Positions 8,481 to 19,525 of a stretch of 64,000 bases of DNA are shown piece after piece. A model generated the notes under the pieces. That model had not been told where the DNA came from. It saw only the letters and a program-made list of their open reading frames with translations, and did no database searches. Position 1 is the stretch's first letter. Every line of letters starts with the position of its first letter. Both the position numbers and the translations under genes were made by a program. The stretch comes from an uncultured Candidatus Berkelbacteria bacterium (GTDB lineage: Bacteria > Patescibacteriota > UBA1384 > CAILIB01): the NCBI GenBank assembly GCA_903834195.1, contig CAILIB010000040.1, positions 7,297 to 71,296 on the forward strand, read 5' to 3'.

Positions 8481-10220
8481 ATGAAACGCACCATATCATA
8501 CATTTTTTCTGCTGTTTTTCTCGCACTCACACTGAGCATTCCACACTTTGCATATGCCGATAGCGGATTTACTATTTCCGATTTTTCATCAACGTTACAC
8601 ATTAACGCCGACGGCACAGTAAACGTACGCGAAGTAATTTCAGCTGACTTCACAACTGCAAAACATGGTATCTATCGTGATATTCCGTACGCGTATCAAA
8701 ATTCTGACGGAAGCACCTACTACACGAATATCAATATTCAAAGTGTTACAGATAACGGCACGGATACACAGTATTCTGTTACACAAAATGATGCCAATGA
8801 AGAAATAAAAATTGGCGACCCGAATAATCTCGTAACTGGCAGCCAAGTGTATACAATTTCCTATGTGGCAATTGGCATCCTCCAGGATAAAACTTCTGTC
8901 GATCAATTAGCTTGGAATGTAACCGGTACCAATTGGGGTGTTCCGATTGCTAAAGCTACAGCTACTATTTCTCTTCCTTCTTCAAGTTTAACTGAAGTAA
9001 GTTGTTCCCAGGGACCTGATGGCTCAACCGAAAAATGTACTTCATCGATTAGCCAAAATGATGGCTCTGGTGCATTTACAACAACACGGAGTTTACAGAG
9101 TGGTGAAGGAATGACGATTATTGCCACCTACCCACACGGGTTTGTTCCAATTCTTAAGGGCACACCCCCATACACGTACACATCATCCGACTACACCAAT
9201 GCAGGAATAACGTTCAGCATTGTAGTTGCGCTCTTTGCATTACTTATTTTCTACATTAATCGAAAACAAAATCTCCGAGAGAACCCAAGTGGTCGCGATA
9301 CGATCATGGCTGTGTATGATCCACCTCTCAACCTACGCCCTGCTGAAATTGGTATGCTCCTGGATGAAAAACCAACCACAACTGCGTGCACAGCAACTAT
9401 TGTTGACCTTGCTTCACGTGGCTATCTAACTATTTCTGAAGTGGAGACTAAAAGTCTGTTAGGGAAAAACACTGACTATACCCTGCATCGAACAGACAAA
9501 GTTGCCGGTGACGAACTAATGACATATGAAAAAACCCTTCTTGATGGCCTTTTCCCACTTGGTAAGGTTGATTCAACCCTCTCAACTCTCAAGTTTGTCT
9601 TCCAAAAAACCTTGATTCAGGTAAATGCGCAGATTATTCAAAACGCAAAAGATAAAGGCCACATTGTTTCAAAATTCTTCAATGCACGAATAATATGTCG
9701 CATCAGTGGAATTATCTTGCTCCTCAACTTTATTTTTGTACTTCCCGCCTTCACAACTCCCGAAGATCCGACAACTTTAGCGTTTGGCTCATTTTTCGCC
9801 GGGCTAGTAGCGGGTGGTATTCTCTTGATAATTGCTAGTACTACTCTTTCAATCCGAACTCCAGAAGGTCATGCAGCCTATGTTCAAGCTGCAGGCTACA
9901 AACTCTTCTTATCGAGTACTGAAAAGTATCGCCAACCATTCTTAGAGCGCCAAAATATTTTCGAAAGCATTCTCTCCTACGCAATTATCTTTGGAGTTAC
10001 TAAAAAATTAGCCAAAGCATTTCAAGACCTTGGTGTACAACCTCAAGTTCCAACTTGGTACTACGCTGCAAATGGATTAAATTTTATCGATTTCTCAAAT
10101 CACCTCGATAGCTTCACCACTCAACTGAGTACAACCATGGCTTCCACACCGAGTGGAGGTATAGGAAGCGGTGGCGGTGTAGGTGGAGGATTCGGCGGCG
10201 GAGGCGGCGGAAGTTGGTGA
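8481..10220 (+). CDS. DUF2207-like membrane protein
   Basis: Signal peptide, then extracytoplasmic 'HINADGTVNVREVISADFTTAKHGIYRDIPY', several TM helices, and a glycine-rich tail 'GGIGSGGGVGGGFGGGGGGSW'. Confidence 0.6.
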   Translation: MKRTISYIFSAVFLALTLSIPHFAYADSGFTISDFSSTLHINADGTVNVREVISADFTTAKHGIYRDIPYAYQNSDGSTYYTNINIQSVTDNGTDTQYSVTQNDANEEIKIGDPNNLVTGSQVYTISYVAIGILQDKTSVDQLAWNVTGTNWGVPIAKATATISLPSSSLTEVSCSQGPDGSTEKCTSSISQNDGSGAFTTTRSLQSGEGMTIIATYPHGFVPILKGTPPYTYTSSDYTNAGITFSIVVALFALLIFYINRKQNLRENPSGRDTIMAVYDPPLNLRPAEIGMLLDEKPTTTACTATIVDLASRGYLTISEVETKSLLGKNTDYTLHRTDKVAGDELMTYEKTLLDGLFPLGKVDSTLSTLKFVFQKTLIQVNAQIIQNAKDKGHIVSKFFNARIICRISGIILLLNFIFVLPAFTTPEDPTTLAFGSFFAGLVAGGILLIIASTTLSIRTPEGHAAYVQAAGYKLFLSSTEKYRQPFLERQNIFESILSYAIIFGVTKKLAKAFQDLGVQPQVPTWYYAANGLNFIDFSNHLDSFTTQLSTTMASTPSGGIGSGGGVGGGFGGGGGGSW

Positions 10221-10235
10221 TAATCTGGGTACACC

Positions 10236-12584
10236 TTGCTTGCAGACTACTCTGGCTGTCATACTAATAGCATGCAGATACTGAAGAAAATGCCTGGCGC
10301 GAAAGCTTCGCTTCTTCGCCGCACGTTCGCCTGGTGCGGAGTGCTTTTTCTCGTTTGCATGCAATCGAGTGCACTCCTACTCACATCAATAAAACAAGCC
10401 CGAGCTTTTACAAGTGTTGGGTATTTTGCAATTGATAACAGTTTTGCCTCTGGATCATCTCCCGTTGCTGGGGTCGCTTTTCAATTAACCATTCGTGCCT
10501 TTACTAACGGTGGAAACATCGTTACCGACTTTAACGACCAAGTAAGTCTCACTGATTTAACTTCATCAATCAGTCCTGGATTAACCACACCGTTCGTCAA
10601 TGGGGTATGGACAAACAACGTCATGATTACCAAATCAGCCAACGTTGACCATATTACGATGTTCTATGGAGCACTCAGCACGAGCTCAGTAGATTTCCAG
10701 GTTGCACCTGATACTCGCTTCACCAATCTTGCCCTCGTTTCTGGAAGTAACCAGTCTGGAGTTGTAGGAACAACTCTTCCTCAACCAATCGTCGTTAAGG
10801 CAATTGACCTGTACGGAAATGCAATTCCAAATATCACAATCAACTTTCTGATTGCTGCGTACCCACCAAATTCTTCTGGACAAAATTTGACCACCAATAG
10901 CGCCACAACTGGCGTATCGGGACAGGTAACAACTAACCTGCAAGCCGGCACGAAAGTGGGCACATACACGATTACTGCCCGAGTTGGTTTAGCAAATGGG
11001 CAACAGTTAAGCATTTACGAAAATGCAATCGCAGGACCAGTAACTAATCTTACTATTCAGCCAGTTATTACTGTAGTTCCAAAAGGTTCTGCACAACAGT
11101 TCTTCGCAAGTGCAACTGACCAGTATAGTAACCCAATTACAACATCCAACCCTTCCTGGAGTGTGATCAATGGCGGCGGAACTATCGACCAGAATGGAGT
11201 ATTCCTCGCAAGTAATACGTCGGGAAACTTTGTAAACACCATCAAGGCGCAAGTCGGAAGCGTAGGTGCACTTGCCACGGTTACCATTATTAATGAAACC
11301 AGTGGTACCTCTGAAGGCAACCAGCCAGGTGATGGAACATTTGGAAGTGGCGCGTCTGTTCCTCCACAAGGTAATCCTGGAGGCACAGCTGGTAGTAGTA
11401 GCGGTTCAAGCAGTGGATCTAGTTCAGGAAGTAGTTCAAGTGGAACAGATTCAGGTAGCTCCTCAGGAAGTTCCTCAGGCGGTTCTACCGGAGGCCATGG
11501 AACAGCAAATACTTTTGGAACCTCAAACACCTATGGAACCGGCACGAGTCAAACAAATGGCTCATCTCAGACAGATGGATCTTCCCAGACTGACGGCACG
11601 AGCCAAACCACTGGCACATCGACTACGTTTGGGACCTCAACCGATGACAAGCGAACTGGTGCTGGAATTCTAGATCGCATCTATGTTATTCCAAGCACGA
11701 TTAGCGTTTTTGCGAGCAGTTCACAACTTATTACTGCCCAAGGCTATGACATCTATAACAACATTATTAGCAGTGTTGCATTTGCCTGGAGTAAAACAGG
11801 AAATATCGGTGATCTCACCTATGCAAATGTGAATAGTACTCAGCTCAACGCAAGTAGCACACCCGGAAACGGAACTATTACTGTTGTTGCAACGCAAACC
11901 GATAGCAAAGGTACTGTGGTTACCAAAACAGCCACTGTTCCCGTTGCAGTTAAACAACAAACTGGTGGGCGTCTCGTATTCGATGCAATTTCTTCACCAC
12001 AAAAAACTGACACTGAGTTTACTGTAACAATTACCGCCAAGGACTACTCAGATAACATTATTGCGGGTTACCAAGGCCCTGCAACGCTTACTGACTCTAC
12101 CGGATCACTTCTTCCAAGTACTGCCACTCCATTTGTTTCTGGAATTTGGCGAGGTCAGGCAAAGATTCTGTACACCGGTGATTCAGTAACCATTACTGCA
12201 GTTGGAAGCGGATTATCAGGAGTAAGTAATGTCTTCAAAGTTGAAGGAGATAGCAAACCACTCAGCTTACGTAGCATTGGTGCTGCACTCTCTGGTGCCA
12301 TTTCTGCTATCACCGGACAAGGAGCATCAAGTGCCGCTGCATCTGCTGCAAAGTCATCTAGCGCAGCTTCATTGGTTCGAAACCTGGCAGCTGGTCTAGC
12401 AGCTGGTTTTGGCCTACTTGGCTCTGCAATCGGTATTGGCATGATGGTTGGTCGCGGCCTTGAAGCTATCGGTAGAAATCCGCTCGCAAAGGGCAAAGTG
12501 CAAATAAATATGTACCTTTCTCTAGTCATCAGCTTAGTTGTAGCTGCTATGGCAATCGTGGCAGCTATGGTAATCTTGACGTAA
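10236..12584 (+). CDS. Ig-like (Big_1/Big_2-like) surface protein with Ser/Gly-rich linker, fused in frame to a C-terminal ATP synthase subunit-c-like hairpin
   Basis: Probable start ATG 10272 ([11 protein letters not shown]..., signal/anchor '[19 protein letters not shown]'). Big_1-like '[29 protein letters not shown]'; Big_2-like '[22 protein letters not shown]'. The last 70 aa, '[70 protein letters not shown]', match the F0 c-subunit pattern G-x-x-IGIG-x(3)-G-x-x-LE-x-I-x-R-x-P. Stop lies 1 nt before the atpF ATG. Confidence 0.75.
11300..11660 (+). repeat. Low-complexity Ser/Gly/Thr-rich linker coding region
   Basis: Encodes [30 protein letters not shown]...[27 protein letters not shown]. 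Confidence 0.8.
12372..12584 (+). other. ATP synthase F0 subunit-c-like helical hairpin (possible internal TTG start at 12372 would give a 70-aa product)
   Basis: See the parent CDS. Helix 1 is GxGxGxG-like, the loop is 'RNP' (canonical RQP), and helix 2 '[27 protein letters not shown]' contains no Asp or Glu. Confidence 0.7.
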
Positions 12585-19209: not shown

Positions 19210-19285
19210 TCAATTCTCCTAGGTGACACTTTCCGTGTACACCAGGTCGCATGATACCATAAACATATTAAATAACTATTAGATA

Positions 19286-19525
19286 ATGCTCCACGTCAAA
19301 ATACTCCACCCAGACCGCCTCGTTTTTGAAGGTGAGGCCGAGTATATTATCGCACCAGGCGCACAAGGTGACCTCGGAATAATGCAGGGCCATACACGAA
19401 TGTACGCCGAGTTAATTACTGGGGAGATCCATATTCAAGGACCAGAGCCCCAGACTTTGCCCATTGAGTCGGGCATTCTTCGAATTAAAGGTGATAACGT
19501 GACTATCCTCGTTGGATTAGAGTAG
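19286..19525 (+). CDS. atpC: F-type ATPase subunit epsilon, N-terminal beta-sandwich domain only
   Basis: 79 aa: 'VKILHPDRLVFEGEAEYIIAPGAQGDLGIMQGHTRMYAELITGEIHI...ILRIKGDNVTILV'. No C-terminal helical hairpin and no downstream ORF. Confidence 0.75.
   Translation: MLHVKILHPDRLVFEGEAEYIIAPGAQGDLGIMQGHTRMYAELITGEIHIQGPEPQTLPIESGILRIKGDNVTILVGLE

What the first reader, a model, noticed from the sequence alone, without database searches (positions are those of the whole stretch)
8481..19525. ATPase cluster lacks an a-subunit gene; a DUF2207-like membrane protein sits in the expected upstream position
Seen in sequence: the order is DUF2207-like, Big/c-like fusion, b, delta, alpha, gamma, unknown ORF, beta, (opposite-strand gene), epsilon. 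No ORF in any frame of this window has the polytopic a-subunit architecture or its conserved Arg motif (..LRLFGN..). Established knowledge: bacterial F-type operons normally run atpB(a)-atpE(c)-atpF-atpH-atpA-atpG-atpD-atpC, and the a subunit is indispensable for ion translocation. Inference: this is an F1-plus-stalk complex paired with a non-canonical membrane partner. That would be conceptually similar to the F1-like X0 ATPases of mollicutes, although here b and delta are retained.
Basis: partly seen in the sequence, partly recalled or inferred. Interest (0 to 1): 0.72.

Follow-up and report, generated by a model that had tools for sequence, protein, structure and literature searches.

The report
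F-type ATPase without an ion path
This candidate-phyla-radiation (CPR) bacterium has an intact ATP-splitting F1 motor and stalk, but no a subunit, and its c subunit lacks the ion-binding acid and is fused to a long cell-surface protein, so it probably does mechanical work at the cell surface, next to a pilus operon, rather than pump ions or make ATP.

Summary
Window 8481-19525 holds, in order: DUF2207, a 782-aa Ig-like/c-subunit fusion, b, delta, alpha, gamma, an orphan ORF, beta, an opposite-strand HAF-repeat gene, and a short epsilon.

An a-subunit profile found subunit a directly upstream of c in all 7 canonical control loci. It found nothing in the 64-kb window or in about 250 kb of related loci.

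In the c-like hairpin the ion-binding Glu/Asp is replaced by Leu. It is aliphatic in all 34 distinct fusion tails collected. These fusion proteins range from 616 to 2,672 aa.

F1 is canonical and looks catalytically competent. Epsilon lacks its C-terminal inhibitory domain.

DUF2207 is not a conserved partner: it is absent from every relative. The conserved neighbours are Pam-like pilus genes, and in some relatives a MacB-type ABC transporter with a giant surface protein. A 2026 preprint noted that ATP synthase genes sit beside the pam operon, but read this as a link to ATP production.

Best reading: an ATP-driven rotary or mechanical motor whose ring carries extracellular arms, analogous to the mollicute F1-like X0 ATPases.

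Main caveat: whole genomes could not be scanned, so an a subunit and a normal c encoded elsewhere are not excluded.

The parts
10236..12584 (+). Ig-like / c-subunit fusion ('BigC'). The likely start is 10290. It consists of a signal peptide, about 650 aa of extracellular Ig-like (Big_1/invasin-type) domains with a Ser/Gly/Thr-rich spacer, a flexible Gly/Ser/Ala linker, and a C-terminal c-subunit hairpin.
   Evidence: Pfam gives Big_1 and ATP-synt_C; NCBIfam gives F0 subunit C models at aa 715-780. The AlphaFold2 model of the last 253 aa shows an Ig sandwich (pLDDT 81-91), a disordered linker and a two-helix hairpin. It is a single ORF in L001, L003, L005, L008, L021, L022, L024 and L027.
12384..12581 (+). 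c-subunit-like hairpin (aa 717-782). The GxGxG-type packing motif and the cytoplasmic R-N-P loop are kept, but Leu stands where the ion-binding Glu/Asp should be.
   Evidence: It aligns without gaps to solved c subunits (9itj_H E 1e-10, 1wu0_A E 5e-9), and their Glu pairs with the profile's Leu. The column census gives 34 fusion tails that are all A/I/L/M/V, against 7 of 7 canonical single-hairpin c subunits with Glu.
12586..13116 (+). b-like peripheral-stalk subunit, with one N-terminal TM helix and a coiled coil.
   Evidence: NCBIfam F0F1 subunit B, E 1e-6, below the family cut-off. TM helix at aa 5-23. Conserved at this position in all relatives.
13113..13661 (+). delta (OSCP) subunit.
   Evidence: PF00213, E 3e-14.
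13671..15302 (+). alpha subunit with a short Lys/Glu/Pro-rich C-terminal extension.
   Evidence: PF00006, E 3e-71. E 7e-133 to solved F1 alpha chains; GDRKSGKT and the SVSRIGG arginine finger are kept.
15302..16171 (+). gamma subunit.
   Evidence: PF00231, E 4e-45.
16210..16653 (+). Orphan 147-aa ORF, soluble. It is an insertion specific to this lineage at the gamma-beta junction and is not part of the conserved machine.
   Evidence: No Pfam or NCBIfam match and no homolog in related loci. Other loci carry unrelated insertions at this junction.
16741..18156 (+). beta (catalytic) subunit.
   Evidence: E 1e-148 to 2qe7_[23 protein letters not shown] and DELSEAE are conserved.
18199..19209 (-). 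HAF-repeat secreted protein. It is an insertion specific to this lineage between beta and epsilon and is not part of the conserved machine.
   Evidence: TIGR02913, E 8e-21. Absent from relatives. It has its own hairpin terminator at 18162-18191.
19286..19525 (+). epsilon subunit consisting of the N-terminal beta-sandwich only (79 aa). The C-terminal helical inhibitory domain is absent.
   Evidence: PF02823, E 5e-19, covers the whole protein. epsilon is 86-101 aa in the relatives with gene calls.
19765..22178 (+). Two paralogous Pam-like pilin genes (399 aa and 368 aa). Each has a signal peptide and two Ig-like domains.
   Evidence: NF058581 CPR_Pam_pilin_C, E 3e-6, below the family cut-off but covering the full domain; 4 of 10 family members match it. 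The AlphaFold2 model has pLDDT 92 and shows two beta-sandwich domains, with Foldseek hits to CfaE/CfaB, FocH and SpaD pilins and to MSCRAMM adhesins. Homologs lie next to the ATPase cluster in L001, L003, L005, L006, L007 and L022.
22159..26982 (+). Further conserved cell-surface genes linked to the ATPase cluster: a 259-aa membrane-anchored protein; a 306-aa protein with signal peptide, beta domains and a C-terminal TM helix (PamC/D-like chaperone candidate); a 423-aa Big_13 + dockerin protein; and 189-aa and 426-aa proteins.
   Evidence: Pfam gives fn3_5/WxLIP_PGBD and Big_13/Dockerin. Homologs lie downstream of epsilon in L001, L003 and L006, and directly upstream of the fusion gene in L007, L022 and L027.
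8481..10220 (+). DUF2207 membrane protein. It is a neighbour in this genome only and is not part of the conserved system.
   Evidence: The Pfam identification is firm. No homolog was found in any related locus, and the gene upstream of the fusion varies.

Best explanation
This is a derived F-type ATPase that has lost its ion path.

Shown:
- alpha3beta3, gamma, delta and b are conventional and look catalytically competent.
- epsilon has lost its inhibitory C-terminal domain.
- No a-subunit gene lies near the cluster.
- The only c-type protein is a fusion. A Sec signal peptide and about 650 aa of extracellular Ig-like domains are joined by a flexible linker to a c-subunit hairpin.
- That hairpin keeps the ring-packing glycines and the cytoplasmic R-N-P loop that contacts gamma and epsilon. 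It has Leu in place of the H+/Na+-binding carboxylate.
- The topology fits. A c subunit has both ends outside the cell, so an N-terminal extension ends up outside.

Inferred:
- The hairpins form a ring on the gamma/epsilon foot.
- F1 hydrolyses ATP and turns this ring against the b2-delta stator.
- The work goes not into ion transport but into the extracellular arms and the cell-surface apparatus encoded alongside. That apparatus is a Pam-type donor-strand-exchange pilus and, in some relatives, giant adhesin-like proteins with a MacB-type ABC transporter.
- In function it is a transmembrane mechanical motor, like the mollicute F1-like X0 and G1 ATPases.

Not known: what the arms do (anchor, turn, wind or reset the pilus or adhesin), and how the stator is braced without subunit a.
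For: 1. No subunit a. The a-subunit HMM scored 7 of 7 canonical control loci at E 1e-27 to 1e-119. It found nothing in the window, in 13 other loci that carry a fusion gene (about 260 kb with the window), or in four further F1 loci. No ATP-synt_A appears in any precomputed gene list.
2. No carboxylate. The hairpin aligns without gaps to solved c subunits. All 34 distinct fusion tails have A/I/L/M/V at the carboxylate column and no Asp/Glu in helix 2. All 7 canonical single-hairpin c subunits have Glu there.
3. The loop '[12 protein letters not shown]' is invariant among close relatives, which argues for a retained contact with gamma and epsilon.
4. F1 is intact. epsilon is N-domain only. The operon is tightly coupled.
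5. The design is old and widespread. More than 100 alpha clusters at 52-100% identity exist. The same gene order holds at 53% alpha identity. Fusions range from 616 to 2,672 aa, including NHL-propeller/Ig giants that still lie in the same operon as b and delta.
6. Linkage to surface machinery. Pam-like pilin and chaperone-like genes adjoin the cluster, and they remain adjacent after rearrangement. A preprint independently reports ATP synthase genes plus a 'tail fibre-like protein' at the centre of pam neighbourhoods, and says that no retraction machinery and no envelope-spanning machinery was found.
7. Precedent. [quoted passage not shown]
Against: - Whole genomes could not be searched, so an atpB and a normal atpE elsewhere are not excluded.
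- The cluster can be fragmented in this clade. L020 has b-delta-F1 with no c-like gene within 10 kb, and L026 has F1 genes alone. Synteny is therefore an imperfect guide to gene content.
- No experiment shows ring formation, rotation or ATPase activity.
- A ring in which every protomer carries a 650-2,600-aa arm leaving from the inner helix may be sterically strained.
- Without subunit a it is unclear what holds the b stator in the membrane.
- The Pam assignment rests on matches below the family cut-off and on fold class.
- In M. amalyticus itself, alpha and beta (QHN42722 and QHN42726) are not numbered next to the pam genes (QHN43268-43274).
- The fusion could be cleaved after translation.
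Confidence: 0.5

Rival explanations
1. This is an ordinary ion-translocating F1Fo. atpB and a normal carboxylate-bearing atpE are encoded elsewhere in the genome. The Big/c fusion is a minor or accessory ring member, as the carboxylate-poor c1 subunit is in the Acetobacterium woodii ring.
For: Related genomes show scattered atp genes: L020 lacks a c-like gene near b-delta-F1, and L026 has F1 genes alone. Rings that mix hairpins with and without a carboxylate do exist: PDB 4bem holds both c1 and c2 chains, and the 4-hairpin c proteins of L011 and L013-L015 have Gln at most carboxylate columns. b and delta are retained. The 2026 review treats CPR F-type ATPases as conventional.
Against: In 14 loci the fusion occupies exactly the atpE slot, immediately upstream of b, and is often translationally coupled to it. 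No second c and no a lie within the flanks, whereas subunit a is directly upstream of c in 7 of 7 canonical loci. The loss of the carboxylate is universal across 34 diverse tails. epsilon has lost its hydrolysis-inhibiting domain.
Confidence: 0.13
2. The hairpin is only a membrane anchor that a surface adhesin borrowed from atpE. It does not form a rotor. The F1-stalk genes work independently, as a membrane-tethered or soluble ATPase or as a decaying relic.
For: The extracellular part varies enormously, from 0.6 to 2.7 kaa, with NHL propellers and dozens of Ig repeats, as adhesins typically do. The Ig repeat is common in giant surface proteins that have no hairpin. The monomer model of the hairpin has only moderate confidence.
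Against: A mere anchor would not need the invariant cytoplasmic loop [12 protein letters not shown] or the glycine packing motif. The fusion stays in the operon with b, delta and F1 across deep divergence and even when other genes are inserted. All F1 catalytic motifs are under evident constraint. beta is 73-77% identical among relatives. In M. amalyticus, alpha and beta rank among the 20 most abundant proteins.
Confidence: 0.15
3. One reading: DUF2207, or another non-homologous membrane protein, replaces subunit a and provides an ion path or stator for this F1-stalk complex.
For: DUF2207 lies 15 nt upstream on the same strand and has three or four TM helices.
Against: DUF2207 is absent from all related loci, and the upstream gene is different in each. 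Without a carboxylate on the ring there is nothing for an a-like channel to load. No polytopic protein is conserved in the shared neighbourhood.
Confidence: 0.03
4. Artefact: the fusion is a frameshift, a misassembly or a mis-called ORF that joins a surface-protein gene to a normal atpE.
For: In L007 the corresponding region is split into three overlapping ORFs.
Against: There are 34 distinct tails from independent assemblies (NCBI, JGI, ENA, Logan), and wherever the gene is complete it is a single ORF. No in-frame start with a ribosome-binding site precedes the hairpin. The missing carboxylate cannot be explained by assembly error.
Confidence: 0.01

Closest known systems
Canonical bacterial F1Fo ATP synthase (atpBEFHAGDC)
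   Same: The gene order from the c slot onward is c-b-delta-alpha-gamma-beta-epsilon. beta scores E 1e-148 against a Caldalkalibacillus F1 beta chain (2qe7_D), and all catalytic motifs, the delta/OSCP subunit and a single-TM b subunit are present. The c hairpin is homologous to solved c subunits.
   Different: There is no a subunit in the neighbourhood. c lacks the ion-binding carboxylate and carries a 650-2,600-aa extracellular N-terminal extension. epsilon lacks its C-terminal domain. The cluster is linked to pilus and adhesin genes.
Mollicute F1-like X0 ATPases (Type 3, MIB-MIP-associated; Type 2, the G1-ATPase of the Mycoplasma mobile gliding motor)
   Same: These are F1-type motors with a non-canonical membrane sector and no subunit a, genetically tied to cell-surface machinery and thought to pass mechanical work across the membrane. 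[quoted passage not shown] That is the same architecture as the fusion here.
   Different: The mollicute clusters have no b or delta, a 12-TM protein and a small cytoplasmic protein. Their alpha and beta are fast-evolving extra paralogs beside a genuine F1Fo operon, and their alpha lacks the N-terminal helix. Here b, delta and the alpha N-terminus are kept, F1 is close to canonical, there is no 12-TM protein, and the hairpin is recognisably c-derived. Whether the mollicute hairpin is c-derived was not tested.
Rotor rings that contain hairpins without a carboxylate (A. woodii c1, PDB 4bem; multi-hairpin c proteins)
   Same: They show that a c-type hairpin can sit in a ring without an ion-binding site.
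   Different: In those rings other hairpins keep the carboxylate and subunit a is present, so the enzyme still translocates ions. Here no carboxylate-bearing hairpin is encoded in the cluster.
The pam operon neighbourhood of CPR bacteria (Troman et al., bioRxiv 10.64898/2026.03.03.709456)
   Same: [quoted passage not shown] The window shows that arrangement.
   Different: The preprint reads the link as coupling to ATP production. It does not mention a missing a subunit, a fused c subunit or a missing carboxylate; a text search for 'subunit c' returned 0 hits. The pilins here match the Pam model only below its cut-off. The preprint places Pam pilins mainly in Saccharimonadia and Microgenomatia, whereas the relatives here are labelled Berkelbacteria or CPR2.

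Membership tests
Ion-translocating F1Fo ATP synthase/ATPase | alpha3beta3 catalytic head with P-loop, catalytic Glu and arginine finger | tested here: met
   [16 protein letters not shown] and DELSEAE in beta; GDRKSGKT and SVSRIGG in alpha; E 1e-148 and 7e-133 to solved chains.
Ion-translocating F1Fo ATP synthase/ATPase | Central stalk (gamma, epsilon) and peripheral stalk (b, delta) | tested here: met
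   PF00231, PF02823 and PF00213. b matches only weakly (NCBIfam E 1e-6). epsilon lacks its C-terminal domain.
Ion-translocating F1Fo ATP synthase/ATPase | c subunit with a membrane-embedded Asp/Glu that binds H+ or Na+ | tested here: not met
   Leu stands at the aligned position and helix 2 has no acidic residue. The same holds in 34 of 34 fusion tails, against Glu in 7 of 7 canonical controls.
Ion-translocating F1Fo ATP synthase/ATPase | a subunit with the conserved Arg, encoded with the operon | tested here: not met
   The a-subunit HMM, with positive controls, found nothing in the window, in the other fusion-bearing loci (about 260 kb with the window) or in four further F1 loci. There are no Pfam ATP-synt_A hits.
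Ion-translocating F1Fo ATP synthase/ATPase | a subunit present anywhere in the genome | not testable with these tools
The source contig is 156,846 bp, of which about 72 kb was seen.
Mollicute F1-like X0 ATPase (Types 2 and 3) | A seven-gene cluster with a 12-TM protein and a small cytoplasmic protein, and no b or delta | tested here: not met
   b and delta are present. No conserved 12-TM protein occurs in the window cluster or in relatives. Features are as described in PMC12994834 and PMC3369863.
Mollicute F1-like X0 ATPase (Types 2 and 3) | [quoted passage not shown] | tested here: met
   In BigC the N-terminal hydrophobic segment is at aa 31-49 and the TM hairpin at aa 717-780. This is a match of architecture only; homology to the mollicute protein was not tested.
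Mollicute F1-like X0 ATPase (Types 2 and 3) | An extra, divergent alpha/beta set alongside a genuine F1Fo operon in the same genome | not testable with these tools
Pam pilus system (CPR) | [quoted passage not shown] | tested here: inconclusive
   NF058581 matches at E 3e-6 and 27 bits against a cut-off of 55, with full domain coverage; 4 of 10 homologs match. The two-domain Ig-like model has pLDDT 92, and its fold hits include chaperone-usher and Gram-positive pilins. There is no PDB sequence match.
Pam pilus system (CPR) | Membrane-anchored PapD/FimC-like chaperones (PamC, PamD), and co-localisation with ATP synthase genes | tested here: inconclusive
   The gene at 23015-23935 has a signal peptide, beta domains (fn3_5/WxLIP_PGBD) and a C-terminal TM helix at aa 273-291. 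Its fold was not modelled. Co-localisation with the ATPase cluster is met and matches the preprint's description.

The most novel reading that the evidence does not exclude
A third kind of bacterial rotary surface motor. In this reading an F-type ATPase has a rotor ring that continues covalently into extracellular Ig-like arms. ATP-driven rotation then anchors and turns, winds or retracts the Pam pilus or giant adhesins. That would supply the envelope-spanning, energy-coupled component that the Pam pilus study could not find. The mollicute F1-like X0 'Protein 5' would be the same invention, a c-derived hairpin carrying a surface domain, which would unite the two systems.
Probability: 0.2. Interest if true: 0.95.

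Novelty: new variant of a known kind. Interest (0 to 1): 0.82.

Why it matters
CPR bacteria are usually scored as having 'complex V', and their energy budgets are argued from that: ATP synthesis from a borrowed proton gradient, or proton pumping by reverse operation.

If a broad CPR clade carries an F-type enzyme that cannot bind the coupling ion and has no a subunit, those metabolic reconstructions are wrong for these lineages. How these cells energise their membrane then becomes an open question.

It would also show a second, independent route, after the mollicutes, by which the F1 motor was turned into a machine acting across the membrane. This version is much closer to the ancestral enzyme, and its membrane part is recognisably a c ring. 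That makes the evolutionary path legible.

Finally, it gives a concrete, testable candidate for the missing energy-coupled component of the newly described Pam pilus, for which a cultured host-parasite system exists.

Tried and rejected
- **Metagenome scan with the hairpin alignment.** The scan gave only one new family member (L010) plus canonical operons, which then served as positive controls.
- **Word-indexed homolog search with the fusion's C-terminal 253 aa.** It returned only 7 true relatives. The exhaustive profile search was dominated by the Ig repeat in giant proteins, so fusions had to be picked out by coverage of the tail.
- **Literature searches for a prior description.** None described an a-less or c-fused ATPase in CPR. 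The library does not cover all journals.
- **PHROGs scan to identify the preprint's 'tail fibre-like protein'.** No hit, so I cannot say that it is the fusion protein.
- **PDB sequence searches with the two pilin-like proteins.** No hit.
- **Split, divergent a subunit.** I considered the two hydrophobic ORFs between gamma and beta in L003. They have no a-profile or Pfam match and occur in that locus only.
- **Internal translation start for a free c subunit.** An AGGAG lies 48 nt upstream of the nearest in-frame TTG. That is too far, and no ATG or GTG is in frame.
- **Extending the window contig.** This added about 7.5 kb upstream, with no atp genes but a MacB-type ABC transporter and a giant Kelch/fn3 protein. 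The downstream look-up returned a shorter contig that adds only about 0.2 kb beyond the window end.
- **Search for a second ATPase or an a subunit on the same contig by matching contig lengths.** Not attempted. Only the best 120 hits are listed, so a negative result would mean nothing.

Full report
**What is there.**
Window 8481-19525 carries, on the + strand, these genes:
- a bona fide DUF2207 protein (8481-10220);
- a 782-aa ORF (10236-12584) with a Big_1 Ig-like domain and an ATP-synt_C match at aa 717-780;
- a b-like protein (12586-13116);
- delta/OSCP (13113-13661);
- alpha (13671-15302);
- gamma (15302-16171);
- an orphan 147-aa ORF (16210-16653);
- beta (16741-18156);
- a 79-aa epsilon (19286-19525).

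One gene lies on the opposite strand at 18199-19209. It encodes a HAF-repeat secreted protein. The core genes are tightly packed: fusion to b 1 nt, b/delta overlap 4 nt, alpha/gamma overlap 1 nt. The organism belongs to the candidate phyla radiation. The nearest genome records are MAGs labelled Berkelbacteria, CPR2, Patescibacteria or Saccharibacteria. The source contig is 156,846 bp.

**Is subunit a really missing?**
None of the polytopic ORFs of the window is ATP-synt_A. They are TspO, MurJ, UbiA, LPG synthase, a polysaccharide flippase and several with no family match. No a-type Arg motif lies in a membrane ORF.

It scored a subunits at E 1e-27 to 1e-119, directly upstream of c, in 7 of 7 canonical loci. 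Its best score on every six-frame ORF of the window was E 0.05. It found nothing in any related locus. The extra 7.5 kb upstream of the window also has no atp gene. It could not be tested genome-wide.

**The c-like part.**
The last 75 aa of the fusion align without gaps to solved c subunits (9itj_H E 1e-10; Bacillus PS3 1wu0_A E 5e-9). The ion-binding Glu of those chains pairs with Leu in the profile.

- 34 distinct fusion tails have Leu (19), Val (7), Ile (6), Ala (1) or Met (1), and helix 2 has no acidic residue at all.
- All 7 single-hairpin c subunits from canonical loci have Glu.

The glycine packing motif of helix 1 is kept. The cytoplasmic loop [12 protein letters not shown] is invariant among the six closest relatives aligned. 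That is what one expects if the hairpin still forms a ring that binds the gamma/epsilon foot.

An N-terminal signal peptide followed by extracellular domains fits c-subunit topology, because both ends of a c subunit lie outside the cell. The AlphaFold2 model of the last 253 aa gives an Ig sandwich, a disordered Gly/Ser/Ala linker and a helical hairpin. No internal start with a ribosome-binding site precedes the hairpin.

**The rest of the enzyme is conventional.**
- beta scores E 1e-148 against a Caldalkalibacillus F1 beta chain (2qe7_D). It keeps [22 protein letters not shown] and DELSEAE.
- alpha keeps its P-loop and the SVSRIGG arginine finger, and it aligns from its N-terminus.
- beta scores far better against F1 (499 bits) than against the mycoplasma G1-ATPase beta (359 bits).
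- epsilon is the beta-sandwich alone, here and in relatives (79-101 aa). The C-terminal helices that inhibit hydrolysis in many bacteria are missing.

**Comparative genomics.**
In genome and metagenome records the order fusion-b-delta-alpha-gamma-(variable insert)-beta-epsilon recurs in L001, L003, L005, L007, L008, L010, L021, L022, L024 and L027. This holds down to 52-53% alpha identity. More than 100 alpha clusters at 52-100% identity exist.

DUF2207, the 147-aa ORF and the HAF-repeat gene have no counterpart in any relative. The gene upstream of the fusion differs from locus to locus.

An exhaustive profile search found fusions from 616 to 2,672 aa. The giants carry NHL propellers and dozens of Ig repeats and end in the same carboxylate-less hairpin. 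In those lineages the giant fusion is followed by a second giant (Kelch/fn3), then an ABC ATPase, then a MacB/FtsX permease, and then b and delta.

The nearest canonical operon (L012, alpha 51% identical) has a, then c with Glu, then b, delta and alpha.

Two relatives show fragmentation. L020 has b-delta-F1 with no c-like gene within 10 kb, and L026 has F1 genes only. Gene scattering therefore happens in this clade, and that tempers the inference from synteny.

**Linked neighbours.**
Downstream of epsilon lies a block of secreted and membrane-anchored proteins (19765-26982). Its homologs follow epsilon in L001, L003 and L006. In L007, L022 and L027 two of them sit immediately upstream of the fusion instead, so linkage survives rearrangement.
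- The 368-aa protein matches NCBIfam NF058581, 'Pam pilus system pilin subunit', over the full domain at E 3e-6. This is below the family cut-off. Four of ten family members match.
- Its AlphaFold2 model (pLDDT 92) is a two-domain Ig-like protein. Fold matches include chaperone-usher pilins (CfaE/CfaB, FocH), Gram-positive pilins and MSCRAMM adhesins.
- The gene at 23015-23935 has a signal peptide, beta domains and a C-terminal TM helix, like the membrane-anchored PamC/PamD chaperones.

Troman et al. (bioRxiv 10.64898/2026.03.03.709456) describe Pam pili. [quoted passage not shown] They interpret this as coupling to ATP production. They state that they found no specialised envelope-spanning assembly machinery and no retraction machinery. 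They do not mention subunit a, a fused c or the carboxylate.

A caution from their own data: in M. amalyticus, alpha and beta are QHN42722 and QHN42726, while the pam genes are QHN43268-43274. By numbering these are not adjacent. The alpha/beta spacing does suggest an insert after gamma, as seen here.

**Mechanism.**
Shown:
- a competent F1;
- a retained stator (b, delta);
- an epsilon without its brake;
- a c-derived hairpin with an intact gamma/epsilon-facing loop and no ion site, fused to a surface-exposed arm;
- no a gene nearby;
- conserved linkage to surface-filament genes.

Inferred: the hairpins form the rotor ring. ATP hydrolysis turns it. The output is mechanical and is delivered to the extracellular arms and the associated pilus or adhesin apparatus.

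I put about 0.5 on this class of explanation. Its exact output (anchoring, turning, winding or resetting) is open, and so is the way the stator is braced without subunit a.

Rivals:
- an a subunit and a normal c elsewhere, with the fusion as an accessory ring member (0.13);
- the hairpin as a mere anchor, uncoupled from F1 (0.15);
- DUF2207 or another protein as an a replacement (0.03);
- assembly artefact (0.01).

**Comparison with known systems.**
As a family member, this is an F-type ATPase by its F1 and stalks. It fails two defining tests for the ion-translocating enzyme: the c carboxylate, and an a subunit in the operon.

It works most like the mollicute F1-like X0/G1 ATPases. Those are required for MIB-MIP antibody cleavage and for gliding, and they are thought to pass force across the membrane. 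It is not a member of that family. It keeps b and delta, lacks the 12-TM protein, and has a near-canonical alpha and beta.

One shared feature stands out. The mollicute 'Protein 5' has a cleavable signal peptide and two TM helices with a short loop at aa 707-768. The fusion here has its hairpin at aa 717-780. Whether the mollicute hairpin is also c-derived is untested.

**Novelty and limits.**
Within the searchable library I found no description of an a-less, carboxylate-less, c-fused F-type ATPase in CPR. The recent review treats CPR complex V as conventional. The co-localisation with pam genes is published, but the nature of the ATPase is not.

I rate it a new variant of a known kind. The decisive missing piece is a whole-genome profile search for a and c, which these tools do not allow.

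Noticed in passing
window 1-2400 (-), and about 7.5 kb beyond the window start: The window opens inside a 1,929-aa Kelch/fn3 giant protein. An ABC ATPase and a MacB_PCD/FtsX permease lie just beyond it. The same trio lies between the giant c-fusion and b/delta in L025 and in the P0226 context, and an FtsX/MacB gene is directly upstream of the fusion in L003. This is a second recurrent neighbour of the a-less ATPase cluster.
   Followed up: partly
window 16172-16740; L003 12944-14746; L005 9557-10176; L026 5870-8281: The gamma-beta junction is an insertion hot spot. It holds an orphan 147-aa ORF here, a histidine phosphatase plus two hydrophobic ORFs in L003, a HAD hydrolase in L005, and an 803-aa polytopic membrane protein in L026. 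In M. amalyticus three genes separate alpha (QHN42722) from beta (QHN42726).
   Followed up: partly
window 18199-19209 (-), with a hairpin at 18162-18191: A HAF-repeat secreted protein (TIGR02913, E 8e-21) is inserted on the opposite strand between beta and epsilon, with its own 13-bp-stem terminator. It splits epsilon from the rest of the operon in this genome only.
   Followed up: partly
window 19620-19649 (+): A near-consensus sigma-70-type promoter-like site (TTGACA, 18 nt, GATAAT; 11 of 12 matches) lies between epsilon and the first Pam-like pilin gene. The pilin genes may therefore be transcribed separately from the ATPase genes.
   Followed up: no
L011 2738-3391; L013 4624-5799; L014 1335-2309; L015 8953-9924: Unrelated operons of the Desulfobacterales type encode subunit a, then a roughly 322-aa c protein made of four hairpins, then a normal c. 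In the four-hairpin protein most carboxylate columns hold Gln and only one or two hold Glu.
   Followed up: no
window 25215-30015 (+): Further conserved genes of unknown function follow the pilin/chaperone-like block. They include a 426-aa protein with TM segments and a charged C-terminus, a 446-aa coiled-coil-like protein and a 550-aa six-TM protein. The first two have homologs beside the ATPase cluster in L001 and L006. The held loci end before the six-TM protein could be checked.
   Followed up: partly
window 13671-15302 (+), last ~40 aa: alpha carries a Lys/Glu/Pro-rich C-terminal extension that solved F1 alpha chains lack. Family alpha subunits range from 527 to 798 aa, so the extension varies in length.
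   Followed up: no
window 2989-3405 (-), 5607-7082 (+), 34811-36406 (+), 60399-61352 (+): Ordinary housekeeping or envelope genes elsewhere in the window: TspO/MBR, amidophosphoribosyltransferase (purF-like), the MurJ flippase and a lysyl-phosphatidylglycerol synthase TM domain. Nothing in them bears on the ATPase.
   Followed up: no
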